From: an uncultured Oscillibacter sp.
GTDB taxonomy: Bacteria; Bacillota; Clostridia; Oscillospirales; Oscillospiraceae
Length of the DNA stretch: 50,561 nt
Assembly: GCA_946494635.1 (NCBI GenBank)
Contig: CAMMCS010000001.1
Location: 1-50,561 of the forward strand
Reading direction: 5' to 3'
Numbering within the stretch: the stretch's first letter is position 1; every line of letters begins with the position of its first letter. Shown one piece after another: positions 20,199 through 50,561 of this stretch. The notes beneath the pieces are model-generated. The model was not told the DNA's origin. It did not search any database and saw only the letters and a list, made by a program, of their open reading frames with translations. Made by a program: the position numbers and the translations under genes.

Positions 20199-20266
20199 TA
20201 AAGATAACCAAAATGCTCATATATTTAAAACAAAAATAGAAATGAGCAAGTTTGGTGCAAAAAAGA

Positions 20267-20357: not shown

Positions 20358-20382
20358 AAAAAGAATTGAGGAGGAAGACATC

Positions 20383-21627: not shown

Positions 21628-21669
21628 AAATCTTTTAAAACTTCTAAATAGATAAGCCTTTGGGCTCAA

Positions 21670-21701
21670 AAAACGCGCCGGAGGTAACTCCGGCGCGTTT
21701 T
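21670..21701. terminator. Intercistronic 14-bp hairpin after livK (mRNA stabiliser or attenuator)
   Basis: aaaacgcgccggag-gtaa-ctccggcgcgtttt. Confidence 0.7.
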
Positions 21702-21736
21702 CGCAATCGTACAGAGTGTCTTGGAGAGGAGACGTT

Positions 21737-22609: not shown

Positions 22610-23646
22610 AGACTGAACAAAAAAAGAAATGGATTCACCAGGTTCTGCCGTTAAGTTGTATAGCAATTGTGATTTTACTTCTTCCGTTTGGGATCCAAAG
22701 CAACTACATCATCACAGTAGCTGTCACATGCTTCCTGTTTTCGTGCTTTGGAGTTTGCTGGAATATGATCAGCGGCTATGGAGGGCAGATATCATGGTGC
22801 CATGCAGTATTTGTCTCCATCGGCGCCTATACCACAATTCTGATGAACAACCTGGCGGGTTGGTCACCTTTTATAGCCATTCCGGTTAGCATGATTCTAT
22901 CCTTTATCATTTCCACTGTGATTGGTAAGATTTCATTTCGATACCGTGGACCATTTTTTTCAATCACAACCATTGCCTTTGCGGAAATTGTCCGGGTTCT
23001 CCTGCTGAACTTCAGAGATTTTACCGGTGGTTCCGCAGGAATCACCCGTCCATACATCGGAGCAAGTTTCTGGAATTTGATGTTCGAAAATGACACTCCT
23101 TTTTATTATATTTCCTTTGTCCTTATGGTTGGAGTTGTCTATATAACATACCGCTTTGAAAAGTCCAAGACAGGGTACTATCTGAAGGCGATTAAAGGCG
23201 ATGAAGACGCCGCAATCTCTCTAGGAATTGATACAAGCCGTATAAAGCTAACGGCGTTTCAGCTCAGCGCTGTTCTGACGGCGGTAATAGGTGTTTTCTA
23301 CGGGGCATTTATCAATTATGTGCAGCCAAATACGATCTGTGGAATGGACTTTTCTGTTCAGATTGGATCGGTAGTCATCGTTGGCGGACTTGGAACGGTC
23401 TGGGGATCGATGATCGGCGCATTTATCCTGATTCCACTTATTGAATTGGCGAATATTCTTCTTGGCGCACAGGGGGGCGCACAGCTGCTTTATGGCCTTG
23501 CCCTTATTTTCGTAGTCATTGCACAACCGCGGGGTGTTATTTATCTCTTCAGCAAAGAGAACCGCGATCGGATTGCGCAGAAACTCGGAAAAGGTGCGAA
23601 GAAAACCTCTGAGAAAATCCGAGAAAAGGGGCGGGAAGATATATGA
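22606..23646 (+). CDS. livM: HAAT ABC permease
   Basis: WNMISGYGGQIS, FSITTIAFAE, AIKGDEDAA, VGGLGT. Confidence 0.92.
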   Translation: MKTEQKKKWIHQVLPLSCIAIVILLLPFGIQSNYIITVAVTCFLFSCFGVCWNMISGYGGQISWCHAVFVSIGAYTTILMNNLAGWSPFIAIPVSMILSFIISTVIGKISFRYRGPFFSITTIAFAEIVRVLLLNFRDFTGGSAGITRPYIGASFWNLMFENDTPFYYISFVLMVGVVYITYRFEKSKTGYYLKAIKGDEDAAISLGIDTSRIKLTAFQLSAVLTAVIGVFYGAFINYVQPNTICGMDFSVQIGSVVIVGGLGTVWGSMIGAFILIPLIELANILLGAQGGAQLLYGLALIFVVIAQPRGVIYLFSKENRDRIAQKLGKGAKKTSEKIREKGREDI

Positions 23647-24365
23647 GTATTTTGCTGGAAGCAAATGACATTTCGATTTCTTTTGGAGGTATTCATGCTG
23701 TCCAGAACCTCAGCTTTCAAGTGAAAAAAGGGGAGGTATTGGGTTTCATCGGACCAAATGGTGCCGGAAAATCTACCTGTATCAACCTGATCACTGGTGT
23801 TTATATGCCTGATACTGGAAGCATTACATTTGACGGTGTGAAATTGACAGAGAAACATACCATCCGGGAGCGTGTTCACATGGGAATGGGAAGGACATTC
23901 CAAACCCCGCGCCCGTTTGGAAACATGACCGTTTATGACAATATTTTTACAGTTGCACTTCAACAAAACAGCTTTGCGGCAGCTCATGAAAAAACAAAAG
24001 AAGTTTTAAAGCTGACTGAGATGGAGCATTGGGCTGATGTCGCAAGTGCAAAGCTACCCATTGAAATGAGAAAATGGCTGGATCTGGCCAGAATTTTGGC
24101 AAACGATCCCAAATTCATTATGATGGATGAGGTCATGGCGGGTCTAAATCCCAATGAGATGGAGAACAGCTTTGCTTTGATTGAGCGTCTGAATCAGGCC
24201 GGCATCACGATTCTGTTTATTGAACATGTGCTGCGGGCCGTTGTGAGAGTATGCTCTCGAGTAATTGTTATCAATGAAGGACGTTTTCTTGCAGAAGGAG
24301 AGCCGAGAGAAGTTTTAGATCGTCCGGAAGTAATAGAGGCGTATATAGGAGGTAAGCGTTCGTGA
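23643..24365 (+). CDS. livG: HAAT ABC ATPase
   Basis: FGG, GPNGAGKS, RTFQ, MMDE, IEH, VIEAYIG. Confidence 0.93.
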   Translation: MSILLEANDISISFGGIHAVQNLSFQVKKGEVLGFIGPNGAGKSTCINLITGVYMPDTGSITFDGVKLTEKHTIRERVHMGMGRTFQTPRPFGNMTVYDNIFTVALQQNSFAAAHEKTKEVLKLTEMEHWADVASAKLPIEMRKWLDLARILANDPKFIMMDEVMAGLNPNEMENSFALIERLNQAGITILFIEHVLRAVVRVCSRVIVINEGRFLAEGEPREVLDRPEVIEAYIGGKRS

Positions 24366-25075
24366 GACTGTTGGAAATATCCGGCGTGAGTGCTGCCTAT
24401 GGAGATCTGAAAGTTCTGCATGATGTTTCGCTGCATGTAGATGAAGGTGAGATTGTTTCTCTGGTGGGATCAAATGGGGCAGGGAAGACGATGCTACTTC
24501 GCATTATATCAGGACTGGTTCCAGTGACGGAAGGACAGATTACCCTAGGGGGAAAAAATCTTTTAAAAGTGAGACCATATGAACGCGTATCTGTAGGACT
24601 TTCCCATATCCCGCAAGGAAGAGGGACTTTAGCAAAGCTTACGGTTAAGGAAAATTTGATTCTCGGTGCATATAGCCTGAAATCTTCTCAACAACGTGAG
24701 GAAAATATTGAACGCGCTTACGGAATGTTCCCAAAGCTCAGAGAGAGGAAAAATCAAATTGCCGGTTCATTGTCCGGCGGAGAGCAGCAGATGCTTGCCA
24801 TTGCAAGAGCCCTCATGTGTGATCCCAAAATTATTGCTATGGATGAGCCCTCTCTTGGACTTGCGCCGATTGTTGTAGAGAATGTCTTTGAGATTATTCA
24901 ACGAGTTTCAAGTGAGAGAAAGATTGCAATTCTGATTGTAGAGCAAAATCTTGTTCAATCCCTGTCCATCGCACATCGGGGCTATGTACTGGAAAATGGC
25001 CGCATTGTCCGGGAGGGAGAAGCAAAGGCCCTCTTGGAGGATAAGGATATTCGGTCTGCATATCTTGGAATTTGA
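24362..25075 (+). CDS. livF: HAAT ABC ATPase
   Basis: GSNGAGK, LSGGEQQMLAIARAL, DEPSLGLAP, VEQN, AYLG. Confidence 0.95.
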   Translation: MRLLEISGVSAAYGDLKVLHDVSLHVDEGEIVSLVGSNGAGKTMLLRIISGLVPVTEGQITLGGKNLLKVRPYERVSVGLSHIPQGRGTLAKLTVKENLILGAYSLKSSQQREENIERAYGMFPKLRERKNQIAGSLSGGEQQMLAIARALMCDPKIIAMDEPSLGLAPIVVENVFEIIQRVSSERKIAILIVEQNLVQSLSIAHRGYVLENGRIVREGEAKALLEDKDIRSAYLGI

Positions 25076-25091
25076 GATAAGGAACTTGATT

Positions 25092-25991
25092 ATGAAGAAT
25101 AAACTGGCGCTTCACATGTGCTACTGGTCTGGAACAGAAATTGGAAACAGTTTGGAACAGATCATCTCCTATACTGCTGAGACCGGTGTGGATTCGCTCG
25201 AACTGGGGCCGGACATGTTCTTAAATCTCGACAGGCAAAGGCGCAAAGACCTGTTACACCGAATTGAAGACCACGGCCTCAGCGTTTCGGTGAACGGTGG
25301 CCTGATGAATGAACGCAACGACACGTCCAGTCCGGATCCCGCAATTCGCAGGGCGGGCATTGAGCACTGCCGACGAGTTTTAGAGGCGTGCGCTGACATG
25401 AGGTCTCCTTATTGGTCGGGACTGATGCACAGCGCATGGTGCCTAAAACCGGATATGGAGAATCCACAGGAATGTAAAAGACGAACATGGGATCGTAGTG
25501 TAGAGGCAATGAAAACGGTAACTAAAATTGCGGCGGACTATGGAGTAGTATGCGCTATTGAAATTGTGAATCGTTATGAGCATTTTTTGCTCAATACAGC
25601 GAAGGATGGTATTGATTTTTGCGGGGAAGTGGGAAGCCCGTACTGCAAACTGTGCCTGGATGTCTTCCACATGTCCATTGAAGAAAATGATATGCCATCT
25701 GCAGTTATGGAAACGCAAAATCGGGGCTATTTGGCATGCATCCACCTGGGAGAAACAAACCGCCGGATTCCAACAGGTGGCCCGACAAATATCAACTGGA
25801 GTCGCTTTGGAAATGCGGTTCGGGATGGCAAGTATTCAGGAACAATGGTGTTTGAGCCGCTGCAGTTTTCCGGAGCATCTACTGCAGCCAAAACCTGTCT
25901 GTGGCGAGATGTTGCGGATCCAAATGATTTGAATGGACTTGTTGTGAATGGACAGAAGGCAGTCTCATTTATGCGCGGCCTTTTGGAATAG
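25092..25991 (+). CDS. D-psicose/D-tagatose/L-ribulose 3-epimerase family protein
   Basis: Metal/catalytic motifs EIVNRYE, LDVFHMSIEE, HLGETNRR, VFEP; ATG 25092. Confidence 0.85.
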   Translation: MKNKLALHMCYWSGTEIGNSLEQIISYTAETGVDSLELGPDMFLNLDRQRRKDLLHRIEDHGLSVSVNGGLMNERNDTSSPDPAIRRAGIEHCRRVLEACADMRSPYWSGLMHSAWCLKPDMENPQECKRRTWDRSVEAMKTVTKIAADYGVVCAIEIVNRYEHFLLNTAKDGIDFCGEVGSPYCKLCLDVFHMSIEENDMPSAVMETQNRGYLACIHLGETNRRIPTGGPTNINWSRFGNAVRDGKYSGTMVFEPLQFSGASTAAKTCLWRDVADPNDLNGLVVNGQKAVSFMRGLLE

Positions 25992-26004
25992 GAAGTTGTG
26001 GAAC

Positions 26005-27480
26005 ATGAGCTATGTAATAGGAATTGACGTAGGAACAACAAACATCAAAGCGCTTGTGATTGATCAGAGTGGTCAGACGGTTGCTTTTGCAAAGAGAAAC
26101 TCACCCTTTCAAGATTTCAATGGCCATGACGCCTATGAGTACCACTCTTTCTGGGAAAATATCTGTCAGCTTCTAAGAGAAACCATAGCCAACATGCAAA
26201 AACAGGGAGCCTCGCCTAAAGATCTGCGCGGAATTGCTGTTGCAAGTATGGGAGAGATGGGATTTCCAGTCGGAAGCAAAGATGCGGTTTTTCCTGCAAT
26301 TTCCTGGTATGATTTGTGCAGCACAAAATATTGGGAAGAGTTATGCGACAAGATTTCCCAAGAGAGGCAGGTTGATATCACAGGGCAAAAGATTATTCAC
26401 ATCTTTTCAATAGCGAAACTGATGTGGCTGAAAGCGGAATATCCACATATATATGATGAAATGGCTACTTGGCTCTGCATTGCAGACTATGTATCGTTTA
26501 AGTTATGCGGAAGCCGCTGTATGGAGAGATCATTGGCAGCGCGGACAGGATTGCTGGATTATAAAACTGGTACCTGGTCAGAAGAAATTTTACAAATAGC
26601 CGGAATTGATGAAGAAAAAATGCCCAGGCTGGTACATGGCGGAGCATACTTAGGAGCAATCACAGATCAAGCAGCAGATGACACGGGGTTACCTCCAGGA
26701 ACACCTGTTTTTGCCGGTGGACATGATCATATCTGCGCATCCTTTGCTACAGGGGTATGGGAGCCTGGAACTATTATGGATTCCAGCGGAACAACTGAGG
26801 TTGTTGTACGGACAGAGGCTCAAAGGGAAAACACACTGACAGCAGGACAAAAGGGCTTCAACATTGGACCGCATGTGCGCCTTGATCACTATTATATTAT
26901 GGGGGGAATCTCTGCAGCAGGCGTCTCTGTGGACTGGTATCGAAAAGAATTTTACGGGGGTTCCCCGCAGCATACTGAAATTGGAAGTCTGATCTATTTG
27001 CCCCACCTGCGCGGAAGCAGTAGCCCTACCAGAGACCCGAGGTCAAAAGGTGCATTTCTGGGAATCACAGACCGGCATGGAAACTCGGATTTTCTGCAGG
27101 CGATCTATGAAGGGGTCGCGTTTGAACTGAAACAAACCATTGATGGCATGGGCAAGTATCCAAAAAAGATCATTGGAGTTGGAGGTGGATACCAAAATGA
27201 TCGATGGACACAGATTAAGGCCGATGTGATGCAGACTGAAATTGAACTTCCTTCTATTAAAGAGGCTACGGCGTTAGGAGCAGCTTTGCTCGCAGGAGTT
27301 GGAAGCGGAATGTTTCCGACTCCTGAGGATGCGTTCCACAACACCTTCCGCATTGAAAAAAGATTTGTACCAAATTTCAAGTATCAGAAATACTATGAGG
27401 AAAAGTACCGGATCTTTCAATCGCTATACAGCACATTGATAGACGTAAATAATGGACTGAGTACATTAAACGCATATTGA
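26005..27480 (+). CDS. FGGY-family carbohydrate kinase (fuculokinase-like subgroup)
   Basis: IGIDVGTT, ASMGE, WYD, GGHDH, SSGT, YLPHLRG, EATALGAALLAG. Confidence 0.9.
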   Translation: MSYVIGIDVGTTNIKALVIDQSGQTVAFAKRNSPFQDFNGHDAYEYHSFWENICQLLRETIANMQKQGASPKDLRGIAVASMGEMGFPVGSKDAVFPAISWYDLCSTKYWEELCDKISQERQVDITGQKIIHIFSIAKLMWLKAEYPHIYDEMATWLCIADYVSFKLCGSRCMERSLAARTGLLDYKTGTWSEEILQIAGIDEEKMPRLVHGGAYLGAITDQAADDTGLPPGTPVFAGGHDHICASFATGVWEPGTIMDSSGTTEVVVRTEAQRENTLTAGQKGFNIGPHVRLDHYYIMGGISAAGVSVDWYRKEFYGGSPQHTEIGSLIYLPHLRGSSSPTRDPRSKGAFLGITDRHGNSDFLQAIYEGVAFELKQTIDGMGKYPKKIIGVGGGYQNDRWTQIKADVMQTEIELPSIKEATALGAALLAGVGSGMFPTPEDAFHNTFRIEKRFVPNFKYQKYYEEKYRIFQSLYSTLIDVNNGLSTLNAY

Positions 27481-27499
27481 GGTAGGGGGCTGTGTTTTT

Positions 27500-28345
27500 A
27501 TGTATGTGTCGCCCAAGGAAATACTGCAGGATGCCATCGATAGGCATTACGCTGTTGCGGCTTTCAACTTTTACAATTTAGATACTCTTTTGGCAATTAT
27601 TGAAGCGGCAGAGGAGGAGCGTTCTCCGGTAATTGCTCAAATTTATGCAGATCATTTCACATTCTATAATGGAGGAGGTTCCATTGCAAAGGCAGCCCTT
27701 CGGCTGATTGAAGAGACGCCAGTCCCGGTCTATTTGCATCTGGATCATGCAAGCAACTACGAAACGATTCTATACGCTATTGAGCTTGGGTTCCATTCTG
27801 TTATGTATGATGGTTCGGAACTGCCATTAGACGAAAACATCAGCATTTCCAAAACTGTGGTGGAGGCAGCCCATAAGCATGGAATTTTCACCGAAGTCGA
27901 GCTTGGTCGGATTGGCCGGCTGTCCGGCGGACAGGAAGACGCTGTCTATGATGATTGCACTGGCGTAGAAGAAGCATGCCAACTGATTTCAAACTGCAAA
28001 GCAGATTCCCTTGCACCGGCGATTGGAACAGCGCATGGATTATATAGGACAGTTCCAAAGCTTAACTTCAGGAGACTGGAGGAGCTGCAGAAAGCGTTGG
28101 AAGTTCCGCTGGTGCTGCATGGAGGCTCAGGAATTCCAGATGAGTTGATTCGTAAGTCGATTGATTTGGGAATCGCGAAAATCAATGTTGGCACAGAACT
28201 CAAATACCAGTGGAGTTCCACGATGAAAGCAGGCCTGGAACAAGGACTGAAAGAGCCAATTAAATTGGAAAATAATGCAAAACAGGCAGTCAAAGAAATT
28301 GCAAAAAGAAAAATCTCTTTATTTGGATCAGCCGGAAAAGCTTAA
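27500..28345 (+). CDS. Class II ketose-(bis)phosphate aldolase
   Basis: AFN, HLDH, SVMYDGS, EVELG, GTAHG, LHGGSG, KINVGT. Confidence 0.95.
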   Translation: MYVSPKEILQDAIDRHYAVAAFNFYNLDTLLAIIEAAEEERSPVIAQIYADHFTFYNGGGSIAKAALRLIEETPVPVYLHLDHASNYETILYAIELGFHSVMYDGSELPLDENISISKTVVEAAHKHGIFTEVELGRIGRLSGGQEDAVYDDCTGVEEACQLISNCKADSLAPAIGTAHGLYRTVPKLNFRRLEELQKALEVPLVLHGGSGIPDELIRKSIDLGIAKINVGTELKYQWSSTMKAGLEQGLKEPIKLENNAKQAVKEIAKRKISLFGSAGKA

Positions 28346-28351
28346 GGAGGA

Positions 28352-29398
28352 ATGAAAATGCGTGCAATGGTTGTTACAAAGCCTTATACATTGGAAGAAC
28401 GGCAAGTACCCATTCCTGAGATCCATAAAGACGAGGCATTAATAAAAATTGCATATACAGGAATATGCGGGTCAGATGTTCACATTTACAAAGGTGAGAC
28501 ACCTACAGCAAAGCCGGATGTCATCACAGGTCACGAATACAGCGGCGTGATTGAAGAGATTGCACCTGGATCTGTAAATCCAGCTGGGCTGAAAAAAGGA
28601 GACAAGGTGGTCGGTTGGATCGTCGAAGCGTGCGGAACGTGTGATGCCTGTTTAGGCGGGCATACGAATCTTTGCAGGAACCTCAAATGCTACGGAACGC
28701 AAGTGGATGGCACATTTAGAGAGTATATTTCTGCTCCGCTTACAATGCTGTATAAGATTCCGGATTCGGCAGATCTGCGATTATATGCATTGGTAGAGCC
28801 TATGGCAGTTGCGGTCTATGCAGTTCGGGAAGCGCCTGTACAGTTGGGCGATACTGTGTTGATCATTGGGGGCGGCGCGATTGGAATGTGTGCGGCTCTT
28901 GCGGCCAAGATGGCAGGCGGAACTAAAATCACAATTTCTGAAATTGCTTCAGAAAAAATTGAAAGAATTAAAAAGATGGGCTTTCATGTTGTAAATCCAA
29001 AAGAGAAAGATGCAGTAAAAAGCTGCATGGATTTGACGGATGGTCATGGCTTCAATTGCATTTTTGAGGCATCTGGTGCTCCCAGTGGATATGATCTTTT
29101 AACGAAGGTAGGCTCTTATAGAGCAAAGGCTGTCAATATTGGCATGAATTTTAGACCTTCCCCCCTGGTGACGCGAGAGATTATGGTTACGGAAACTGGT
29201 ATCAAAGCAATTCGAATCCATCAGCAATCTGTTTTTGGGCTTACGGAAAGATTGTTTGAGTCTTTGAGTGAAAAGGAACAAAGAGATCTCTACAGTCTTA
29301 TATCCGACGACTATGATTTTGACCATTTGAAAGAGGCGTTTGATTTTTGTGTCAATGACCAGTCATATTGTAAGGTAATGGTAAAAGTAGGACTCTGA
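28352..29398 (+). CDS. Zn-dependent MDR dehydrogenase (polyol/aldonate type, probably NAD-linked)
   Basis: GICGSD, GHE, structural C-x2-C-x2-C-x7-C, EP, GGGAIG followed by acidic SE. Confidence 0.92.
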   Translation: MKMRAMVVTKPYTLEERQVPIPEIHKDEALIKIAYTGICGSDVHIYKGETPTAKPDVITGHEYSGVIEEIAPGSVNPAGLKKGDKVVGWIVEACGTCDACLGGHTNLCRNLKCYGTQVDGTFREYISAPLTMLYKIPDSADLRLYALVEPMAVAVYAVREAPVQLGDTVLIIGGGAIGMCAALAAKMAGGTKITISEIASEKIERIKKMGFHVVNPKEKDAVKSCMDLTDGHGFNCIFEASGAPSGYDLLTKVGSYRAKAVNIGMNFRPSPLVTREIMVTETGIKAIRIHQQSVFGLTERLFESLSEKEQRDLYSLISDDYDFDHLKEAFDFCVNDQSYCKVMVKVGL

Positions 29399-29457
29399 AA
29401 AAGGGACGCAATCAGCAGTGCGGATACCGCAAAAACAGTAGATTGCGTCCCTTTTTT
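29398..29457. terminator. Bidirectional terminator
   Basis: aaaaagggacgcaatc ... gattgcgtcccttttt, 16-bp arms. Confidence 0.7.
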
Positions 29458-29573
29458 ACACGATATGTAAAGGGCATATTCTTTTTTGGCGTTTATCAAT
29501 ATGATGTGGCAAAAAGAAGGATGCAGCTTATTTTGTTTAGAAGGAAAGAGAAGTTTATGAGTAACTTTGCAAG

Positions 29574-30362
29574 TTATTGTCCCTCATACAGCTCAGGAAA
29601 AATGCACTTTACATTTTGAGCGGCAAAGCTTTTTAGAATTTCGGGGGCAGGCCTTTCATTTGTGACAATGGCGCTTAAAGAGCTAATTGGGCAGAAACTG
29701 AAGGTCGCCATTTTAGAAAATTTGCTGCCGTCGATCATTGCAACGATGGACTTTCCGACATTTTGATTGATAACTGTGCTTTTAATCTCGGCCTCTAGAT
29801 AATTATTATTAGCCAAGCCACCACGAAAAGAGATGCTGGATGCCGAAATAAAAACAGTGTCAATCTGCATACCGGAAAGCCCTTTTGAAGTGGACAACCC
29901 AACAAAGGAAACTGTATCTGGATTGTAGATACCTCCTAAGGCAACTAGGCGGATGGAGGGGTATTTTGATGCTTCATACATAGCGGATAGAGAATGTGTA
30001 ACGACTGTGACATTCTCTTTTTCCGCTAAAAAAGGGATTATTTTTTCCGTGGTACTTCCAGAATCCAGAAAAATGGAACTGTTATTCCGAACCAGCCCAG
30101 CGGCAAGCCGCCCAATGATTTGCTTTGCCTGACTGTTTTCTGAAGTACGAACAGACATGGGAGGAACGGAATCAAATTCTGACTTTGGGGCTGCACAAAC
30201 ACCTCCGTATACCTTTTTAATGTTGCCGCGGTCTACAAGAATATTAAGATCTCTGCGGATAGTATTCGTGGAAACATGGAAGATTTCCACAAGTTTATCC
30301 AACGACACTGAACGATTCTTTAGAATGTACTGCTCTATTGCGTTTAAACGCTCGATTTTCAT
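29574..30362 (-). CDS. DeoR/GlpR family transcriptional regulator
   Basis: VSTNTIRRDL...KVYGG, IFLDSGSTT, DGSKF. Confidence 0.95.
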   Translation of the reverse strand: MKIERLNAIEQYILKNRSVSLDKLVEIFHVSTNTIRRDLNILVDRGNIKKVYGGVCAAPKSEFDSVPPMSVRTSENSQAKQIIGRLAAGLVRNNSSIFLDSGSTTEKIIPFLAEKENVTVVTHSLSAMYEASKYPSIRLVALGGIYNPDTVSFVGLSTSKGLSGMQIDTVFISASSISFRGGLANNNYLEAEIKSTVINQNVGKSIVAMIDGSKFSKMATFSFCPISSLSAIVTNERPAPEILKSFAAQNVKCIFPELYEGQ

Positions 30363-30494
30363 TCTTGAAATAAGAATCACCTCTTTTGTTAAATTTTGTA
30401 TAGATTATAACATATATTTGGAAAAAGGAAAAGAAAATTTTTCATAAAGAGATAAAAATGATCAATTTATTTTGCGTGAAATGAGGAGATTTCG

Positions 30495-31673
30495 ATGAAA
30501 CCTTTGGAGGGAATCCGAATTATTGATCTAGGAAGATTTGTTTCAGCGCCATTTTGTGGAATGTTGTTAGGGGATCTCGGAGCGGAAGTGATTAAAGTGG
30601 AAAAGCCTGTGTCCGGAGAGGACTCAAGAGGTGTTGGGCCATTTTTGAATGGGGCGTCTCTATACGTTCCGACTTTTAACCGCAACAAAAAGGGCGTTAC
30701 TATCCAAACCCGAAAGCAAGAGGGTATTCAGCTATTGAAGGAACTCATTCAAACGGCAGATGTGCTTCTTGAGAATTATCGTCCGGGGACACTTGAAAAG
30801 ATGGGTTTGGGCTATAAAACCATACAGAAGATTAATCCGCGGATGATTGTAGCGTCTATTTCCGGGTTCGGACAAACAGGGCCGGATGCGTTGCGGTCGG
30901 CTTTTGATCCCATTGCGCAGGCAGTGGGCGGACTGTATGCGATAACGGGAACAGAACAGTCTGGTCCCCTTGGAGCCGGAACGGTCATTGCAGATCTGAC
31001 GACTGGACTATATACAGCCTATGCGATTTTGGCTGCTGTCATTCAGCGTGGGAGGACAGGCAAGGGCCAATACATCGATATTGCGATGACCGACTGCATG
31101 GTTTCCCTACTGCATATCTATGTCCCTGATTATGCGGCCAATGGGACAGTTCCCAAACGTCATGGAAACAGGGATCCGCTTTCCGCTCCAGCGGACTGCT
31201 ATCAGACGGCTGATGGTTACATTGTCATGCATGCAGGTGAAGATAAGGCCTATGCGAGTCTGAAGCAATTGATTGCGGACGCGAGACTTGCTGATCCAAA
31301 ATTTGACTCGCATCAGGGGCGCGTTCTATATCAGGAAGAGTTGGAGAAGTATCTTCGGGATTGGTTTAAAGATAAGACAACGGATGAGGCGGAGCGCACG
31401 TTGCTTAATAACGGAATTATGGCAGCGCGTGTTTATGACATGCCTCATATCTTCACATCTGAACAGATTAAGCAGAGGGGGATGCTGGTTGAAATGGATG
31501 TCCCCAATGCCGGCACTTGTATTTTCCAAGGGAACCCGATTCATATGTCGGATCTGCAAATTTCCTATAAAAGAGCACCCATGGTAGGCGAGCACAATCA
31601 GGAAATCTTTGGAACTTTACTGAAAAAAGAGGATGGAATACTGAGGAGTATGCAGGAAGAGGGCATCATCTAA
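30495..31673 (+). CDS. CaiB/BaiF family III CoA-transferase
   Basis: PLEGIRIID, LGDLGAEVIKVE, NRNKK, ENYRPG, SGFGQTGP, catalytic Asp in IADLTTG. Confidence 0.95.
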   Translation: MKPLEGIRIIDLGRFVSAPFCGMLLGDLGAEVIKVEKPVSGEDSRGVGPFLNGASLYVPTFNRNKKGVTIQTRKQEGIQLLKELIQTADVLLENYRPGTLEKMGLGYKTIQKINPRMIVASISGFGQTGPDALRSAFDPIAQAVGGLYAITGTEQSGPLGAGTVIADLTTGLYTAYAILAAVIQRGRTGKGQYIDIAMTDCMVSLLHIYVPDYAANGTVPKRHGNRDPLSAPADCYQTADGYIVMHAGEDKAYASLKQLIADARLADPKFDSHQGRVLYQEELEKYLRDWFKDKTTDEAERTLLNNGIMAARVYDMPHIFTSEQIKQRGMLVEMDVPNAGTCIFQGNPIHMSDLQISYKRAPMVGEHNQEIFGTLLKKEDGILRSMQEEGII

Positions 31674-31693
31674 AAACACAGAAGGAGATTGAA

Positions 31694-32458
31694 ATGGAAT
31701 TTGTTAAATTAGATATTCAAAATCATATTGGGGTTGTGACTTTTTCCAGACCACCTATCAATGCAGTTAATCTGCAGTGCAACTTGGAAATAGCAGAGGT
31801 CTTTGAACAGATCAACCATTGCGATGAAATCTGGTGCGTGGTGCTGCGGGCATTGGGAAAGGGATTTATTTCCGGCAGTGATGTGGATGATTTTGCTGCT
31901 TATGATGAAGAACTGCTGAAAGCCAACGAGGATGCGGATGTGAGAAGCATCATGGCCATTTACCACTGTCGCGTCCCTGTGATTTGCCAAGTGCAGGGGT
32001 ATGTATTGGGCCATGGCACGACATTTGCAGCCGCAAGCGACATGATTGTGGCAGCTGATGATACATATTTTGGAATCCCAGAAGTTACTCTTTGTGTAGT
32101 GGGGGGAACGGATGCAATCCGCCAGCTTGTGCCGGAGAAATTCCTGCGTTATATGGCATACACCGGGAAAAAGATCAGCGTACAGAAAATTGCGGAATAT
32201 GGAAATATTTTGAGAGTTGTTCCCCGGGCCCTTGCATTTGAGACGGCGATGGAGGTTGCGGCGGAGATTACCAGCCAATATCCAAAGGCGGTACAATGTG
32301 TAAAGGCGGCGGTTCAAGATCTCACAAACCACGACAAAGAGCGGGACTTCTATGTTGACTGCACCTATACACATGAGCTGCTGAAGGACCCTGAGAGAGA
32401 AAAAGCCTTGGAAACTTATTATGCAAAACTGAGGGAGAAAAAAGCTGGGAGAATATGA
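31694..32458 (+). CDS. Enoyl-CoA hydratase/isomerase (crotonase) family protein, paralogue 1
   Basis: RPPINA, FISGSD, GYVLGHG, FGIPE. Confidence 0.9.
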   Translation: MEFVKLDIQNHIGVVTFSRPPINAVNLQCNLEIAEVFEQINHCDEIWCVVLRALGKGFISGSDVDDFAAYDEELLKANEDADVRSIMAIYHCRVPVICQVQGYVLGHGTTFAAASDMIVAADDTYFGIPEVTLCVVGGTDAIRQLVPEKFLRYMAYTGKKISVQKIAEYGNILRVVPRALAFETAMEVAAEITSQYPKAVQCVKAAVQDLTNHDKERDFYVDCTYTHELLKDPEREKALETYYAKLREKKAGRI

Positions 32459-32459
32459 G

Positions 32460-33209
32460 ATGAGATGCATTACACTTGAAACATTGGAAGATCATATTGC
32501 CGTAGTAACTTTCCACAGGCCTCCAATTAATGCAATAGATCTTGCCGCTAATATTGAAATTGCTGAGACATTTGAAGAACTCAGCCGAAATGATCAGATC
32601 AGGTGTGTTGTTTTTAGAAGTATTGGGAAAGGATTTATTTCCGGAAGTGACACAGGCGACTTTTCAGCATTTGACGAAGAGATCCTGAAAGCAAATGAAG
32701 ATGCAGATATCCGGAGTGTTTTGGCGATTGAAAGCTGCCGCGTTCCTGTGATCTGCCAGGTACAAGGCTATGTTATGGGGCTTGGAACCTGTCTGGCTGC
32801 AGCATCGGATTTTATTGTTGCGGCAGAGAATACTTATTTTTCACAACCAGAGGTAAGACTCTGTGTAGTTGGAGGGACAGGGGCACTCCGGCAGTTGGTT
32901 CCAGAAAAATTTATGCGGTACATGGTCTATACTGGGAAAAAGATCGGAGTAGAAACTATTGCAAAATTTGGAAGCATACACATGGTTGTTCCCTTGGAGG
33001 ATGCTTTTGGTACGGCACTGGATTTAGGGCGCGAAATCGCAAGGAACAGCTCAAAAGCGGTATACAGTGTAAAAGCTGCCATTCACGATCTTATTCGAAG
33101 AGACTCAGAAGAAGAGTACCGGATCGACTGTCAACAGACACATATAATGCTGCGGGATCCAATGAGAGATGAAATACTGACGAATTATAATCAGAAAATT
33201 AAAAAGTAG
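32460..33209 (+). CDS. Enoyl-CoA hydratase/isomerase (crotonase) family protein, paralogue 2
   Basis: RPPINA, FISGSD, GYVMGLG, FSQPE; colinear with paralogue 1. Confidence 0.9.
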   Translation: MRCITLETLEDHIAVVTFHRPPINAIDLAANIEIAETFEELSRNDQIRCVVFRSIGKGFISGSDTGDFSAFDEEILKANEDADIRSVLAIESCRVPVICQVQGYVMGLGTCLAAASDFIVAAENTYFSQPEVRLCVVGGTGALRQLVPEKFMRYMVYTGKKIGVETIAKFGSIHMVVPLEDAFGTALDLGREIARNSSKAVYSVKAAIHDLIRRDSEEEYRIDCQQTHIMLRDPMRDEILTNYNQKIKK

Positions 33210-45439: not shown

Positions 45440-46915
45440 TCAGAACTTCAGCGCGAACACGACATCCCCCAAAGAGATCTGATCGCCGCTGCGCAGAACA
45501 CTGGCCATCTCAATCCGGCTGCCATTGACGCAGGTGCCGTTCTGAGAGCCGAGATCCTCCAGATATACGGTCCCATTGGTCATGAAGACTCTGGCGTGCT
45601 GCCGGGAGACAGAGTTGTCTCCAAAGGGAATATCGCACGCAGCGTCCCGGCCGATGATCAGTTCGTGCCGAAGCGTGAACTCCAGGCCGCTCCCCTGATA
45701 GGCGCCCTGGAATATTTCGAGCCGCATGTAAATGCCGTCCTCCTCCGGCTGAGAGGGCTGCGGGACAGGGGCGGGCTGCGGAGCAGCTGCGGGAGAGGAT
45801 TTCTTCCGCCGCAGAAGGAAAATCCCTGCGGCAGCGGCAAGTGCGACGGCAACGCCGATGGCTGGCAGCAGGATCATATGGGCAGAGGACTCCCCGGCGC
45901 TTTCGGAGGGAGCGCCGGCTCCTGCGGGAGCAGAGTCTGCAGCGGGGAGCTCAGCTTCCGGAGAGGAGGGGGGAAGGGGGGCAGGCTCCTCCTCCGCAGG
46001 ATCCCCCGCCGTCTCGCCATCTGACGGAAACGGGATGGCAGTTGTCCCGCGGCATACCAGTTCCCCATCAGAGGCGAATGTGACAGAGAGCTGCGGCGTC
46101 CCGTCAGAGGGCGTGAAGCCCGAGAGGGAAAAGCTGGTGACATAGAGCTCGCCGGTCTGTGCCGAAAGGGAGGCCGCGGCCTCTTCCGCAGTGAGGCCAT
46201 CGCCAACGACCTGATGGGTTCCGCCGGACGCCTCTGTCAGGGAGGCCAGGCTTTCCAGGGCGGCTGTATCTGTGCCGAAGCCCACCGAATGGAGCATCAC
46301 GTCAGAAGCATTGACCCGCTCCAGAAGCTCCTCATAAGAGACACTGGCTCCCGGATCGTACTGCACCGCGTCAGACAGAACAATCAGGCCGCGGAGCTCA
46401 TTTCCGGTGCGAGGCATGCCGTTGAAGCAGTCCAGCGCCTGGCTGATGGAGCTGTGGAGCCGGGTAACCGTCTCATCCATTGGGATGGCGGCCATTTCTC
46501 CGGCCAGATCCTCCGGGGAAACATCCTCCGCCAAGAGTGAAAAGGAGTCCCCGAAGGAGGCCAGAAGAAAGCGGGTATTCTCGCCGCCGGCAGCGGCCAG
46601 ACTCTCAGCAAAGGCCACCGCATCCTCCCGGAAGGGGGGCATGGAGTTGGAGTTGTCCACCAGCAGCATCCAGGTCACAGGAAACCCCGCCTGCCGGACG
46701 GTTTCCAGAGTGCTGTCGGCAGGGAAGGTCCGGCCCTCGATCTCTGCGTCGGCCTTTGTGATGGGCTGGTCGGTCCCCGAGATCTCCACATAGGTGTAAA
46801 CGTTGTCCTGATACACAAAAGCCCGCACCAGCCGGGCCGCGGCGGCTGCCTGGGCACCGGCCGCCAGCGCCAGGGACAATGCCAGGGCTGCGGCCAGAGA
46901 AACCATTCGTTTCAT
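45440..46915 (-). CDS. Signal peptide + vWA (MIDAS) domain + TM + cytoplasmic FHA domain protein
   Basis: MKRMVSLAAAL..AQA; LLVDNSNSM, T, LSD; P/A/E linker; TM then RRKK; IGRD..SVSRQHA..DLGSQNGT. Confidence 0.88.
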   Translation of the reverse strand: MKRMVSLAAALALSLALAAGAQAAAAARLVRAFVYQDNVYTYVEISGTDQPITKADAEIEGRTFPADSTLETVRQAGFPVTWMLLVDNSNSMPPFREDAVAFAESLAAAGGENTRFLLASFGDSFSLLAEDVSPEDLAGEMAAIPMDETVTRLHSSISQALDCFNGMPRTGNELRGLIVLSDAVQYDPGASVSYEELLERVNASDVMLHSVGFGTDTAALESLASLTEASGGTHQVVGDGLTAEEAAASLSAQTGELYVTSFSLSGFTPSDGTPQLSVTFASDGELVCRGTTAIPFPSDGETAGDPAEEEPAPLPPSSPEAELPAADSAPAGAGAPSESAGESSAHMILLPAIGVAVALAAAAGIFLLRRKKSSPAAAPQPAPVPQPSQPEEDGIYMRLEIFQGAYQGSGLEFTLRHELIIGRDAACDIPFGDNSVSRQHARVFMTNGTVYLEDLGSQNGTCVNGSRIEMASVLRSGDQISLGDVVFALKF

Positions 46916-47631
46916 CCGCATTCCTCCACAAAAACGGCGATCAGAGAGAAATTGTCATTGCCCGGGGGCGTTCTCCGAATGTGGCGGAGCAGCATCCCCT
47001 CCGCCCACTCCTTCGGCGTATGGGCCTTACAGAGCTCAGCCAGAATCTCCTCATTGTAGACATACTCCCAGAACCCGTCGGAGCAGAGGAGGAAGGCGTC
47101 TCCCGCGGCCACATCCCCGTGCCCGGCCTCGGGGCGGCAGGGCTCCTTGCCCAGCACCCGCAGCAGACGGCTGCGGTCGTCATCGTGGTAGACATCCATG
47201 TAGGAGATCTCGCCGCCAAGGAATTTTTTGTAGGTGACGGAGTGGTCGGCGGTGACGCCGGCCGGCATCCCGCCCGAAAACCGGTAGAGCCGGGAATCCC
47301 CGATGTGGGCCCAGACCGCCTGGCTTCCCCGCAGGGACAGGGCCACGGCAGTGGTGCGCATTTCCTCCTGTCCAGGCTGCGCCTGCTGACGGAGGATCTC
47401 CTGATTGGCGGACTGGAACAGATCCAGCAGTCCGGTCTCATCCAGCGTATCCGCCTGGGAGATGCCGGTGAAGATGGCGTCTACCGCCGCGGCGGAGGCA
47501 ACCTCGCCGCAGCTGTGTCCGCCCAGGCCGTCCGCCAGGACAAAGATGCCCTGCTCTGCCGAGGCCCGGAGGCTGTCCTCGTTATGTTCCCGGCCGCCGC
47601 GGTTTGTATAGGCGTAAGCGCTCACCTTCAT
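46912..47631 (-). CDS. PP2C-family Ser/Thr phosphatase
   Basis: GGREHNED, ADGLGG, HIGDSR, LCSDG, DNFS. Confidence 0.93.
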   Translation of the reverse strand: MKVSAYAYTNRGGREHNEDSLRASAEQGIFVLADGLGGHSCGEVASAAAVDAIFTGISQADTLDETGLLDLFQSANQEILRQQAQPGQEEMRTTAVALSLRGSQAVWAHIGDSRLYRFSGGMPAGVTADHSVTYKKFLGGEISYMDVYHDDDRSRLLRVLGKEPCRPEAGHGDVAAGDAFLLCSDGFWEYVYNEEILAELCKAHTPKEWAEGMLLRHIRRTPPGNDNFSLIAVFVEECG

Positions 47632-47636
47632 GGCAC

Positions 47637-48842
47637 TTACTCCAGATCCACATAGATGGTATTATCCACCTCACCCAGATAGAAGGAGCTCTTGGGCGGC
47701 AGCTTGGTGGGAGACTGGGGCTGAATCCGCTGGCCGCCAGCCAGGAAGGTGCCGTAGGTGGAGTTGAGATCCGTCACGACGAAGACGTTTTCCCGCTCGT
47801 CATAATAGACCTGGCAGTGGTGGGAGCTGACGCCCGGTGTGCCGTCCTGATACACCAGGCGGCAGGTGGCGCTGTCCCGGCCGATCTGCACCGGCTGCTG
47901 ATGGTGCAGCTGCACCACAAGCCCGCCATGCTGGGGAGACATGGAGCGAAGCACCGGGGAGCCGGACGGCTTTTCCGCTGCAGCAGCGGGGGCGGGCTTC
48001 TTCTTCCGCGCCAGCGCCACAATCACGATGACGGCTGCGACCACCACCACGGCGGCAATGCCCACATAGAGCATGGTGCTGCCGGAGGAGGAGCCGCTGT
48101 ACAGGGAGTAGGCGATGTTATTCCGGTCCAGCATGGGCAGGACCTCGCCAACGCTGACCGCGTAAAACAGGTTTTGATCCAGGTTGGAGGCAGCGGTATT
48201 GATGCCCAGCACCGCGCCGTTTCCGTCGATCAGGGGGCCGCCGGAGTTGCCGCCGCTCATGGCGGTATCCGTCTGGATCAACTGGCGGCCGGTGCCGCTC
48301 TCTGTCAGCAGGCGGCCGATGCTGCCGGCAGTGACGGTGGCGTCGTCCGGGCTGAAGGAGTTCACGGCCTGCACCGTCATATCCGCCGCCAGCGGATACC
48401 CAACGGCGTAGACCTCGTCGCCCAGCATGGTGTCCTCCACCTCCCGCATCTGGAGGGCAGAGCGCTTGTCAGTAGGCTCCTCCAGGCGAAGAACGGCGAT
48501 ATCCTTTTCCACGTCATAGTCCACCAGGTATGCCTCTTCCTCTTCATCCTGGTCAAAGAGCACATGGAGTTCTCCGCCGCCCAGGGCCTTGCCGGCAAGA
48601 ATGAAATCATCCACTACATGGCAGTTGGTGACGATGTACTCCGGATCCTCCCCAGGCGTACCCACAAAGAAGCCGGTGCCGCGCCAGTAGTTCATGACGC
48701 CGTTTTCGTCCGGAGCGCCGGTTCGGATCAGAACAATCCCGTTGAGCGTTTCCTGATTGAAGGCCGCCATGGACGGCACCGCCAGGGCTGCCGCCAGTAC
48801 AGCCGCCAGCAGCGCCGCGGCCAATTTCCGCAAAATAGTCAT
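47637..48842 (-). CDS. Signal peptide + trypsin-like serine protease + TM + cytoplasmic FHA domain
   Basis: GTGFFV, TNCHVV, DIAVL, GNSGGP triad intact; TM then RKKK; IGRD..VSSHHC..DLNSTYGT. Confidence 0.9.
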   Translation of the reverse strand: MTILRKLAAALLAAVLAAALAVPSMAAFNQETLNGIVLIRTGAPDENGVMNYWRGTGFFVGTPGEDPEYIVTNCHVVDDFILAGKALGGGELHVLFDQDEEEEAYLVDYDVEKDIAVLRLEEPTDKRSALQMREVEDTMLGDEVYAVGYPLAADMTVQAVNSFSPDDATVTAGSIGRLLTESGTGRQLIQTDTAMSGGNSGGPLIDGNGAVLGINTAASNLDQNLFYAVSVGEVLPMLDRNNIAYSLYSGSSSGSTMLYVGIAAVVVVAAVIVIVALARKKKPAPAAAAEKPSGSPVLRSMSPQHGGLVVQLHHQQPVQIGRDSATCRLVYQDGTPGVSSHHCQVYYDERENVFVVTDLNSTYGTFLAGGQRIQPQSPTKLPPKSSFYLGEVDNTIYVDLE

Positions 48843-48864
48843 AGTCCTCTCTCCTGTCTTTTTG

Positions 48865-49695
48865 TTATTGATAGGCGATCATGACGCCTGTGTAGTTGTC
48901 CTGAGCAGGCAGGGCCTTTTCCAGCACCATGGTCTCCAGCAGCCGGCAGCCCTCGTCCGGGGACAGGGACATGGCCTCTCTCAGCTCAGGGACGCTCAGC
49001 ACGCCGCTGATCCCGTCGGAACACAGCAGGATCACATCTCCCGGCTCCAGACGCCAGGGCCGCAGGCTCTGGTCCACAAGCTCCAGGTGGTCAATCCCCA
49101 CAAAGGCGGTAAGCCGCCGGGCGTCCTCATCCTGCTCCGCCCGCTCTTTCCGGATGGGCTCCTGATAGAGCTCCTCCAGATACAGGTCATTCAGGCAGGT
49201 ATGCTCCCGGTTCAGCTGGAAGACGCAGTCCCCCCGCTTGAGGAAGATGGCGCTGTCCCCCACGCTGATCCAGTGCAGCTTGTCGCGCAGAAGCCGCACC
49301 GCCACGGCCGTGGTTCCGCTGTGCCCCTGAAACCGCTGGAAGATCCCGTCGCTTGCAGCCAGGATCCCCTCCCGCAGCTGCTGGGGGACGTCACCCTCCT
49401 CCAGAAGGGAGCGGAAGAGCTGTATGAGGGCCTCCACCGCGGCTTCGCTGGCCTCATTGCCGTCAGCCATGCCGCCCATGCCGTCCGCCACCACGGCGAA
49501 AAGCCCCTGGCGGGCCAGCGCGTCCGGATCGGAGACATTGCAGAGGGCGAAAGAGTCCTCCTGCCGTTCCCGCTGGCCGACGCCCTGCACATTGCCCACC
49601 TGAAGGGCGGGACGCCGGGACACCGGAAGCTCCACAGTGGCGCCGTCCTCCGTCACCCGGCGGGCACGGCCGAAGAGCCGATCAAACATCCCCAT
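48865..49695 (-). CDS. PP2C-family Ser/Thr phosphatase with N-terminal extension
   Basis: GQRERQED, ADGMGG, VGDS, LCSDG, DNYT. Confidence 0.93.
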   Translation of the reverse strand: MGMFDRLFGRARRVTEDGATVELPVSRRPALQVGNVQGVGQRERQEDSFALCNVSDPDALARQGLFAVVADGMGGMADGNEASEAAVEALIQLFRSLLEEGDVPQQLREGILAASDGIFQRFQGHSGTTAVAVRLLRDKLHWISVGDSAIFLKRGDCVFQLNREHTCLNDLYLEELYQEPIRKERAEQDEDARRLTAFVGIDHLELVDQSLRPWRLEPGDVILLCSDGISGVLSVPELREAMSLSPDEGCRLLETMVLEKALPAQDNYTGVMIAYQ

Positions 49696-50500
49696 GGTCC
49701 TTCTGCTCCTCCTGCTTCCAGGTGAAACGTTCGCCGCAGAGCGGGATGAACAGCAGCTTGGTCTCGCCGAAGTCGATCAGGTCATAGGCCTGCAGCGGTG
49801 TGGCGGAGAATACTTCCTCGCCGTTGAGATAGATGATATTCCGCCCGTCCCCCGGCAGCAGGTTGAACCGGTTGTTCCGGTCGCTGTAGCTGATCTTGGC
49901 GTGATTTTCCATGGAGATGGTCCGGTCGCCGGTGATGGTGATATCCATTCGGTCGCCCCGGCCGATGGCGTTGATGCCGCCCCGGATGGTATAGCTCTTG
50001 CCCCGGCTGGGGCCCTCCACACAGGCCAGCCATCCCACCACCGGGTCGAAGCCCATCTTCTCCTGCATCATGCCCACGGTCTTGCCGGCATCCAGGACGC
50101 TGGGGCCGTGAAACTTAGGCGGCGCGGTGGGCTCCGGCGCCTCAGGGGGGATGGGGGCGGGCGGCGCATAGCCTCTGGGGGGCATGGTCTTCTGGGGGGC
50201 GGTCACCGGGATGGAGCCCTGAGGCGCGTAGCCCTTGGGCGGCATGGTCTTGGAGTCCGCCGTTACTGGGATGGCGCCCGCGGGAGCGGAGGGCTGCTGC
50301 GGCGTGAGGGGCGCCGTCTTTTGCTCCGCTGTCACCGGCACGGCGGAGAGAGGCGCGGTGCGGCCCGCGTCCGTCACCCGGATGGGGGCGGTGCGGCCCG
50401 CGGCCGCCACGGTGATCTGCTGGTTGTTCTTGCAATAGGGACAGGTGGGGTATTTCTCCGGGTCATAGAGATGCCCCCGCCCGCATTCGATCTGGGCCAT
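49682..50500 (-). CDS. N-terminal Zn-ribbon + Pro/Thr-rich repeats + FHA domain protein
   Basis: CGRGHLYD..KYPTCPYC; repeated VT-x3-[RK]T[AM]P; PVVGWL, IGRG..ISMENHA..YLNG. Confidence 0.88.
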   Translation of the reverse strand: MAQIECGRGHLYDPEKYPTCPYCKNNQQITVAAAGRTAPIRVTDAGRTAPLSAVPVTAEQKTAPLTPQQPSAPAGAIPVTADSKTMPPKGYAPQGSIPVTAPQKTMPPRGYAPPAPIPPEAPEPTAPPKFHGPSVLDAGKTVGMMQEKMGFDPVVGWLACVEGPSRGKSYTIRGGINAIGRGDRMDITITGDRTISMENHAKISYSDRNNRFNLLPGDGRNIIYLNGEEVFSATPLQAYDLIDFGETKLLFIPLCGERFTWKQEEQKDHGDV

Positions 50501-50534
50501 TTGGGATTCCTCCTATTACAATAAATTTGGACAG

Positions 50535-50561
50535 GAAAGCCGGGCAGCCAGTCCGGCTTTC
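50535..50561. other. 9-bp hairpin upstream of the FHA operon
   Basis: gaaagccgg ... ccggctttc at the window edge. Confidence 0.4.

What the first reader, a model, noticed from the sequence alone, without database searches (positions are those of the whole stretch)
45440..50500. Candidate trans-membrane phosphothreonine signalling system: trypsin-TM-FHA, vWA-TM-FHA, Zn-ribbon FHA and two PP2C phosphatases
Seen: five tightly coupled minus-strand genes (overlapping or <=22-nt spaced). Two are single-pass receptors with an extracellular domain (trypsin protease with intact His/Asp/Ser; vWA with intact DxSxS MIDAS) and a cytoplasmic FHA. One is a soluble FHA protein, and two are intact PP2C phosphatases. 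Established: FHA domains bind pThr and PP2Cs reverse Hanks-kinase phosphorylation. Inference: a phospho-switch that recruits or activates a surface protease and an adhesin/sensor from inside the cell, possibly for cell-contact, defence or envelope remodelling. I know of no characterised system with this architecture in gut Clostridia.
Basis: partly seen in the sequence, partly recalled or inferred. Interest (0 to 1): 0.8.

Follow-up and report, generated by a model that had tools for sequence, protein, structure and literature searches.

The report
Variable receptor kinases steering surface protease
Five real genes of a gut bacterium form the output half of a conserved cluster whose relatives start with a membrane kinase carrying a highly variable outer domain; the kinase likely tags an inner scaffold protein that would gather a predicted outward-facing protease where something touches the cell, possibly as a defence.

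Summary
In detail: all five genes, domains, catalytic residues and topology are as described. The missing kinase exists in relatives. The contig stops at an IS110 end just upstream of the first gene; 16 of 20 related loci have a Zn-ribbon–kinase–TM–LRR gene there. The kinase's best solved relative is the T6SS kinase PpkA, yet no T6SS sheath gene was found (0 of 5 genomes). Kinase domains are near-constant (88% identity) while ectodomains vary (47.5%, most on the LRR concave face) or are swapped (MORN, β-propeller, PASTA). This genome has three unlinked paralogs. Kinase and protease-FHA co-occur in 27 of 32 and 27 of 30 genomes among 300. The soluble FHA protein carries 3–7 [KR]TxP repeats, likely phospho-acceptors. 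The protease is the constant output. The vWA protein is accessory (8 of 18 loci) and its FHA is often degenerate (48 of 114 intact). Best model (inferred): a PpkA/Fha-like switch without a T6SS that clusters a PDZ-less HtrA-like protease at contact sites. My nine literature searches found no description. The scan noted a similar cluster on other DNA (e1-2319681). Function is untested.

The parts
49682..50500 (-). Soluble Zn-finger (C6/H10/C20/C23) - Pro/Thr-rich repeat linker - FHA protein; likely phospho-acceptor scaffold
   Evidence: closest solved sequence GarA, E 1e-5
50180..50395 (-). Five [KR]T[AM]P[LIP] repeats (T37, T48, T62, T85, T105) in the linker; 3-7 copies in homologues; predicted pThr docking sites
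   Evidence: counts in 120 homologues; 5 observed, 0 of 20000 shuffles reach 5
48865..49695 (-). PP2C phosphatase A, metal-binding motifs intact
47637..48842 (-). Signal peptide - PDZ-less HtrA/MarP-like serine protease (H75, D114, S200) - TM (about 253-278) - FHA (G321, R322, S339, H342; Tyr363 in place of Asn)
46912..47631 (-). PP2C phosphatase B, metal-binding motifs intact
45440..46921 (-). Signal peptide - beta-sandwich/vWA with MIDAS (D89, S91, S93, T153, D184) - Pro-rich stalk - TM (about 351-371) - FHA (intact here, often degenerate in homologues)
50512..50561 (+). End of a multicopy IS110-family element inserted just upstream of the Shine-Dalgarno of the first gene; it ends the contig where relatives have the LRR kinase gene
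   Evidence: same end at 8 contig ends; last-bin depth 311-507 against mostly 6-30; contigs of three runs diverge at 50514; NF033542 above cut-off

Best explanation
The five genes are the output half of a conserved cluster headed, in relatives, by a PpkA-like membrane kinase with a variable outer domain; the kinase likely senses something touching the cell and likely phosphorylates the threonine repeats of the soluble FHA protein, which would then gather the FHA tails of a predicted outward-facing protease (and, where present, the vWA protein) at that spot, with two phosphatases likely resetting it. Shown: gene order, domains, residues, co-occurrence, ectodomain variability, several kinases per genome. 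Inferred: (1) ligand-induced kinase activation, by analogy to PpkA; (2) the [KR]TxP repeats are the substrate; (3) multivalent FHA docking clusters the PDZ-less HtrA-like protease and switches it on by local concentration or oligomerisation; (4) its target is a foreign attacher (phage, epibiont, contact toxin) rather than the cell's own envelope. The confidence given is for the whole chain; the signalling wiring alone I put near 0.75.
For: Order kinase-ZnFHA-PP2C-protease-PP2C-vWA is kept: kinase adjacent in 16 of 20 loci, and the other four are cut short by contig or locus ends. The same 6 of 40 relatives carry both kinase and protease-FHA. In 300 family genomes, 32 have the kinase, 30 the protease and 27 both, against about 3 if independent. 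Best PDB hit of the kinase is PpkA 5HNV, E 5e-50, against StkP 5e-28. In Serratia, PpkA phosphorylates Fha Thr438 and PppA reverses it (PMC6082577 passages). Kinase domain 88% against ectodomain 47.5% identity (416-635 aa) in 12 loci; own-genome paralogs 95-98% against 33-36%. LRR concave positions 25.5% identical against 39-40% at other non-core positions. Ectodomains are swapped among LRR_4, LRR_5, MORN, DUF5050, pectate-lyase-like, PASTA, beta-lactamase-like and Sel1. 1-7 kinases per genome, some in tandem arrays; patchy presence in 24 of 101 genera. Protease FHA keeps R in 141, S in 143 and H in 143 of 144. In the Esr pathway, Thr phosphorylation in the disordered linker of an FHA protein drives anti-epibiont defence (10.64898/2026.09.08.750141).
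Against: No experiment and no phosphosite data. The protease FHA lacks the canonical Asn in 142 of 144, so pThr binding is not assured. The vWA FHA is intact in only 48 of 114. Concave-face variability is expected of any LRR binding family and does not itself show an arms race. Some accessories (PASTA, beta-lactamase-like, PrsW, RDD, S-layer neighbours) fit envelope upkeep equally well. PADLOC gives only generic domain hits. In this assembly the IS110 separates the five genes from any upstream kinase, and the adjacent kinase is not in the 67%-complete genome. Genomes are related and the thresholds were mine, so the co-occurrence is not an independent statistic.
Confidence: 0.45

Rival explanations
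1. Same wiring, housekeeping purpose: the kinases sense cell-wall or S-layer state, and the protease does local envelope quality control or remodelling, as HtrA and PrsW proteases do.
For: The protease fold is HtrA/Deg/MarP-like. Some loci have PASTA or beta-lactamase-like ectodomains, PrsW-FHA, RDD-FHA, and SLH or Cu-amine-oxidase-N neighbours.
Against: Present in only about 10% of family genomes and patchily within genera. The genome has three other HtrA-like trypsin genes and a separate kinase match on C49. A housekeeping sensor would not need hypervariable, swappable, multi-copy ectodomains.
Confidence: 0.25
2. Feedback model: the protease FHA docks on the autophosphorylated kinase itself, and the protease sheds or destroys the ligand-bound ectodomain (or releases the vWA ectodomain). 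It resets or relays the signal; the real output is the Zn-finger FHA protein acting elsewhere.
For: The protease is the one constant membrane partner whatever the ectodomain. The ZnF-FHA family also sits in unrelated contexts (dynamin loci in Roseobacteraceae plasmids, DnaJ/TPR loci in Bacillota), as a general output would. EsrG and ArnA are FHA outputs with Zn fingers in some or all members (the ArnA Zn finger is recalled).
Against: The variable-number Thr repeats suit a multivalent scaffold for several FHA-tailed membrane proteins. No DNA-binding domain was found on the ZnF-FHA.
Confidence: 0.18
3. Host-interaction model: internalin-type LRRs bind host gut proteins, and the protease and vWA act on mucus, antibodies or epithelium for colonisation.
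For: The ectodomain scores against internalin models (InlA E 4e-67, far below cut-off). vWA/MIDAS domains are typical adhesion modules (established knowledge).
Against: The same core with trypsin, DUF805 and two PP2Cs is on a plasmid of the plant-associated Azospirillum lipoferum, and the kinase-FHA-PP2C core is in marine Roseobacteraceae. Many ectodomains are not LRR.
Confidence: 0.1

Closest known systems
T6SS threonine phosphorylation pathway (PpkA / PppA / Fha)
   Same: Kinase is closest to PpkA among solved structures; membrane kinase plus PP2C plus FHA protein. Contact-triggered local assembly is described in PMC6082577 (passages). P. aeruginosa PpkA carries a C-terminal vWA (PMC1262709 passages).
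   Different: No TssC in 0 of 5 genomes tested. Monoderm host. Sensors are fused, variable and multi-copy. Outputs are FHA-tailed membrane proteins (protease, vWA, RDD, DUF805, PrsW). Two PP2Cs.
Esr epibiont-sensing pathway of Actinomycetes (bioRxiv 10.64898/2026.09.08.750141)
   Same: Variable surface sensor, Ser/Thr kinase and phosphatase, vWA, and an FHA protein phosphorylated on a Thr in a disordered linker, with Zn fingers in some members.
   Different: Esr uses a separate beta-propeller/Ig sensor, MoxR and a transglutaminase, is linked to Esx and is confined to Actinomycetes. No MoxR-level match and no linked WXG100 here. Esr has no FHA-tailed protease in the parts I read.
ArnA/ArnB of Sulfolobus (PMC6509490) and DRA0331-0334 of Deinococcus (10.64898/2026.01.23.701218)
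   Same: FHA plus vWA plus kinase/phosphatase modules (abstracts). ArnAB is the top fold hit of the vWA protein.
   Different: In ArnA/ArnB the FHA binds the phosphorylated C-terminus of the vWA protein. Here vWA and FHA are in one chain on opposite sides of a predicted TM, so they cannot pair that way. No protease is mentioned in either abstract.
GAP1-N2 ternary conflict systems, kinase-PP2C-vWA theme (PMC7159879, section 29)
   Same: Zn-ribbon or TM kinase next to PP2C and vWA in predicted conflict loci.
   Different: That theme is restricted to actinobacteria and needs GAP1/GTPase components. None was seen as a conserved gene in the 20 close loci or in the Pfam scans.
Plant LRR receptor-like kinases with the FHA-PP2C KAPP (recalled, no call)
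   Same: LRR ectodomain, single TM, Ser/Thr kinase, FHA readers, PP2C erasers and an expanded, variable receptor set.
   Different: Analogy only: opposite orientation (kinase N-terminal), internalin-type LRR, PpkA-class kinase.

Membership tests
T6SS TPP (PpkA/PppA/Fha) | Membrane Ser/Thr kinase of the PpkA class | tested here: met
   Relatives' kinase: best PDB hit PpkA, 174 against 102 bits. This is a similarity rank; no tree including PpkA was built.
T6SS TPP (PpkA/PppA/Fha) | Adjacent PP2C and FHA protein | tested here: met
T6SS TPP (PpkA/PppA/Fha) | Encoded with a T6SS core (sheath TssC etc.) | tested here: not met
   PF05943 in 0 of 5 genomes, 4 of them at least 95% complete; the control rings in E. 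coli. Only this one core gene was searched.
T6SS TPP (PpkA/PppA/Fha) | Kinase phosphorylates a Thr of the FHA protein | not testable with these tools
   Candidate repeats only
Esr pathway / MoxR-vWA ternary systems | MoxR AAA+ ATPase in the locus | tested here: not met
   PF07726 gives only weak hits (best 27.7 bits; 1 of 5 genomes just over the cut-off), none on the contig of the window or of the four main loci. No such conserved gene in 20 loci.
Esr pathway / MoxR-vWA ternary systems | Separate beta-propeller/Ig sensor and transglutaminase | tested here: inconclusive
   No such conserved cluster in the 20 loci. One-off flanking genes were not all scanned, and no genome-wide search was made.
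Esr pathway / MoxR-vWA ternary systems | Link to Esx/T7SS | tested here: not met
   WXG100 in 1 of 5 genomes, on a different contig from the locus
HtrA/Deg proteases (S1C) | Chymotrypsin fold with intact triad, closest to Deg/HtrA | tested here: met
HtrA/Deg proteases (S1C) | C-terminal PDZ domain(s) | tested here: not met
   TM and FHA follow the protease domain; no PDZ; below all NCBIfam cut-offs
Canonical pThr-binding FHA (GR, SxxH, NG; PMC1262709) | All three motifs present | tested here: inconclusive
   Window vWA-FHA: all present, but R+S+H in only 48 of 114 homologues. Protease FHA: GR and SxxH kept, Asn replaced in 142 of 144. ZnF-FHA: GR, S, H and N in 120 of 120.
IS110 family (contig end) | IS110 transposase inside the element | tested here: met
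   The ORF following the same 50-nt end in L140 scores NF033542 244 bits against cut-off 140. The element body is not in this assembly.

The most novel reading that the evidence does not exclude
Gut Clostridia carry an innate-immune-like receptor repertoire. Several single-pass LRR/MORN/beta-propeller receptor kinases with a near-constant PpkA-type kinase domain and hypervariable ligand faces all feed one shared phospho-scaffold, which assembles an extracellular protease at the point of contact to cut off whatever has attached. It would be the T6SS targeting circuit re-used to aim a protease instead of a needle.
Probability: 0.3. Interest if true: 0.87.

Novelty: new variant of a known kind. 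Interest (0 to 1): 0.62.

Why it matters
If right, it is inside-out control of an extracellular protease through an FHA tail, and a bacterial parallel to variable LRR receptor kinases, in about a tenth of the sampled genomes of an abundant gut family. It would show the PpkA-Fha circuit working without a secretion system. It also gives a tractable way to ask what gut Firmicutes sense on contact, since many ectodomains plug into one kinase and one readable phosphosite array.

Tried and rejected
(1) Finding the adjacent kinase in this genome: none of the three LRR-kinase paralogs (C22, C38, C78) ends at a contig end or is followed by the FHA gene. The sequence seen upstream in IS-free contigs of runs X3 and X5 has 0 matches in G000, so it stays unknown. 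(2) Expression: contigs from four RNA-labelled runs cover parts of the genes, some with no differences. They are contigs, one run is probably DNA and no silent control was laid, so this is no evidence either way. (4) A kinase-domain tree (24 rows, 2 left out for lacking the motif, 9 of 21 branches open) did not resolve concerted evolution; some paralogs group by genome and others do not. (5) PADLOC: only generic kinase, trypsin and PP2C similarities; not filed as a known defence system. (6) tRNA/island context for the unlinked kinases: ARAGORN found no tRNA on C22, C46, C78, C38 or C25. (7) The contig-end repeat as a cassette or shuffling site: rejected; it precedes unrelated genes and is an IS110 end. 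(8) Literature searches found no paper on this cluster. A 2008 protease survey lists only an FHA-FHA-trypsin of Bacteroides. (9) Sequence look-up in earlier findings: nothing; genome look-up: nothing.
Full report
OBSERVATION. Both receptor-like proteins have an N-terminal hydrophobic segment and one internal TM followed by basic residues. AlphaFold models agree: pLDDT 85.4 for the vWA protein and 90.9 for the protease. Among 150 protease representatives at the 50% cluster level, 134 have both the catalytic-Ser and FHA motifs. All 134 have a TM between them, 123 have an N-terminal hydrophobic segment and 122 have at least 2 K/R after the TM. The protease outside and the FHA inside is therefore a conserved prediction, not a measurement. 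The protease fold is HtrA/Deg/MarP-like and lacks PDZ. The vWA sits in a beta-sandwich, with ArnAB and ITIH1 as top fold hits.

WHY THE KINASE IS MISSING. The window is the whole contig C1 of a 67%-complete genome. Its last 50 bases recur at 8 contig ends, beside ribosome-binding motifs of unrelated genes. Read depth in the last bin is 311-507 against mostly 6-30 elsewhere, and contigs of three runs leave the window at 50514. The same end occurs in at least 119 metagenome stretches. In L140 it leads into an IS110 transposase. What lies beyond it in this strain is unknown.

SYNTENY. Twenty related loci (named mostly Oscillospiraceae/Oscillibacter, 57-86% identity) all keep ZnFHA-PP2C-protease-PP2C. 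Nineteen show the vWA gene next; the twentieth ends there. Sixteen have a kinase immediately upstream; the other four are cut short. The 16 operon and tandem kinases I scanned from these loci and L040 all carry LRR domains, with Pkinase in the 15 that include that domain (architecture Zn-ribbon-kinase-TM-LRR). Some loci appear in more than one call, so counts from different calls are not added.

DISTRIBUTION. The same 6 of 40 relatives have the kinase and the protease-FHA. In a draw of 300 family genomes (handles agree between the two calls), 32 have the kinase, 30 the protease and 27 both. Five have the kinase only and three the protease only, with weak scores. Kin are not independent and the thresholds were mine. 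I fetched 20 stretches around these hits, chosen because the hits were adjacent. In the 18 with a protease gene, all have a PP2C and a kinase (in L113's coordinates), 16 have a called ZnFHA and only 8 have vWA-TM-FHA. Other FHA-tailed membrane proteins appear instead or as well: RDD, DUF805, PrsW, Big_2, DUF4234, FHA-FHA-ABC. Across Bacillota the ZnFHA family is in 18 of 400 genomes. Of 19 loci fetched, 7 have trypsin-FHA and 4 have vWA; 9 are a different DnaJ/TPR cluster (105 of 268 called ORFs scanned). Alphaproteobacterial plasmids hold the core too (19 records; 3 read).

THE RECEPTORS. In 12 loci the kinase domain averages 88% identity and the ectodomain 47.5% (416-635 aa), against 50-78% for the five genes. 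Three unlinked paralogs in this genome are 95-98% identical in the shared kinase stretch and 33-36% outside. In 19 LRR ectodomains (171 pairs), concave positions are 25.5% identical against 39-40% for other non-core positions; in the 10 closest pairs the figures are 49% against 58-63%. Of 27 further ectodomains scanned, Pfam finds LRR_4 in 4, LRR_5 in 3, MORN in 7 (one with DUF5050), pectate-lyase-like in 3, an extensin-like hit in 1 and nothing in 9. PASTA, beta-lactamase-like, GYF_2 and Sel1 occur further out. Following earlier finding e1-2319681, I tested the kinase class: the best solved relative is PpkA (E 5e-50; next StkP 5e-28). TssC is absent from 5 of 5 genomes tested, WXG100 is unlinked, and MoxR is not found beyond noise.

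THE SCAFFOLD. The soluble protein has an invariant C-H-C-C motif and an FHA with GR, S, H and N in 120 of 120 homologues. Its Pro-rich linker carries 3-7 [KR]T[AMQ]P[LIVP] repeats; the five in the window exceed all 20000 shuffles. That FHA domains often read the pT+3 residue is established knowledge, recalled; many repeats have Leu, Ile or Val there. That these are phosphosites is inference, by analogy to Fha Thr438 (PMC6082577) and EsrG1 Thr152 (Esr preprint).

AGAINST. The protease FHA has Tyr, His or Phe instead of Asn in 141 of 144. Alignment A4 was preselected on the FHA motif, so I rely on the unselected count. The vWA FHA keeps R+S+H in 48 of 114 while its DxSxS is in 120 of 120. RNA data are inconclusive. 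No complex prediction was available. The tree was uninformative. PADLOC gives no specific system. The purpose (defence, envelope upkeep, feedback, host contact) rests on distribution and analogy.

MECHANISM. Most likely a PpkA/Fha-like switch without a T6SS: a variable ectodomain binds a ligand, the kinase phosphorylates the repeat scaffold, FHA tails cluster, the PDZ-less protease acts locally outside, and two PP2Cs reset it (0.45 for the whole chain). Rivals are envelope upkeep (0.25), protease as receptor feedback (0.18) and host interaction (0.10). It works like the T6SS TPP and Esr pathways but is a member of neither.

LITERATURE SEEN. PMC7159879: passages and section 29. 10.64898/2026.09.08.750141: parts 1, 3 and 4 of 9 and passages. 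PMC6082577, PMC1262709, PMC2605481, PMC2176072 and 10.64898/2026.10.19.760177: passages. PMC6509490 and 10.64898/2026.01.23.701218: abstracts. Searches found no description of this cluster. The library lacks most subscription papers, and I read no supplements; the neighbourhood tables of PMC7159879 and the Esr preprint could bear on novelty. The plant RLK/KAPP comparison is recalled.

VERDICT. A real, conserved, apparently undescribed signalling module; a new variant of a known kind; interest 0.62. The scan recorded a similar cluster in another genome.

Noticed in passing
window 50512-50561; ends of G000 contigs C242, C137, C70, C98, C194, C28, C155; L122-L201: An IS110 element (about 1.63 kb) that inserts just upstream of Shine-Dalgarno sequences. 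All 8 contig-end copies abut a GGAG-type motif, 7 of them with an ATG a few bases on; 71 of 80 metagenome loci examined have a start codon within about 18 nt of the junction. A ribosome-binding-site-targeting IS110 whose bridge RNA could be mapped.
   Followed up: partly
G000 C22:1-2226 (N-terminus on the end of C46), C38:10879-12660, C78:7471-8934: Three unlinked LRR-kinase paralogs with 95-98% identical kinase stretches. The C78 copy's LRR breaks off after about 130 aa where an opposite-strand surface-protein ORF overlaps it, near an integrase-like ORF.
   Followed up: partly
G000 C12:15489-18014; upstream of the kinase in L019, L023, L024, L028, L030, L031, L035: A second cassette (HTH gene; divergent small soluble kinase; Zn-ribbon-TM-beta-helix protein, sometimes tandem) lies directly upstream of the LRR kinase in many relatives but stands alone in this genome.
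   Followed up: partly
L090, L093-L100 (9 of 19 Bacillota loci): The same ZnF-FHA family plus PP2C in a different cluster with DnaJ, a second FHA, a PP2C-like/TPR protein and several Pfam-less proteins of about 720, 430, 230, 880 and 258 aa. Four of nine loci were scanned; the rest are grouped by ORF-size pattern. Unexplained.
   Followed up: partly
L080, L082 (Leisingera and Ruegeria plasmids); L081 (Azospirillum plasmid): Kinase-FHA-PP2C next to dynamin-family gene pairs in Roseobacteraceae; FHA, FHA, PP2C, PP2C, trypsin, DUF805, kinase and OmpA next to an integrase in Azospirillum.
   Followed up: no
window about 20000-33200: A low-GC block (42-47% against about 60%) with ORFs that look like ABC transport and sugar or CoA metabolism; probably acquired (labels from reading the sequences, no family scan).
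   Followed up: no
window 50086-50371: Contigs of several runs skip 82-157 bases within the Thr-repeat linker, consistent with repeat-number variants in related strains; joints are short-sided and may come from other organisms.
   Followed up: no
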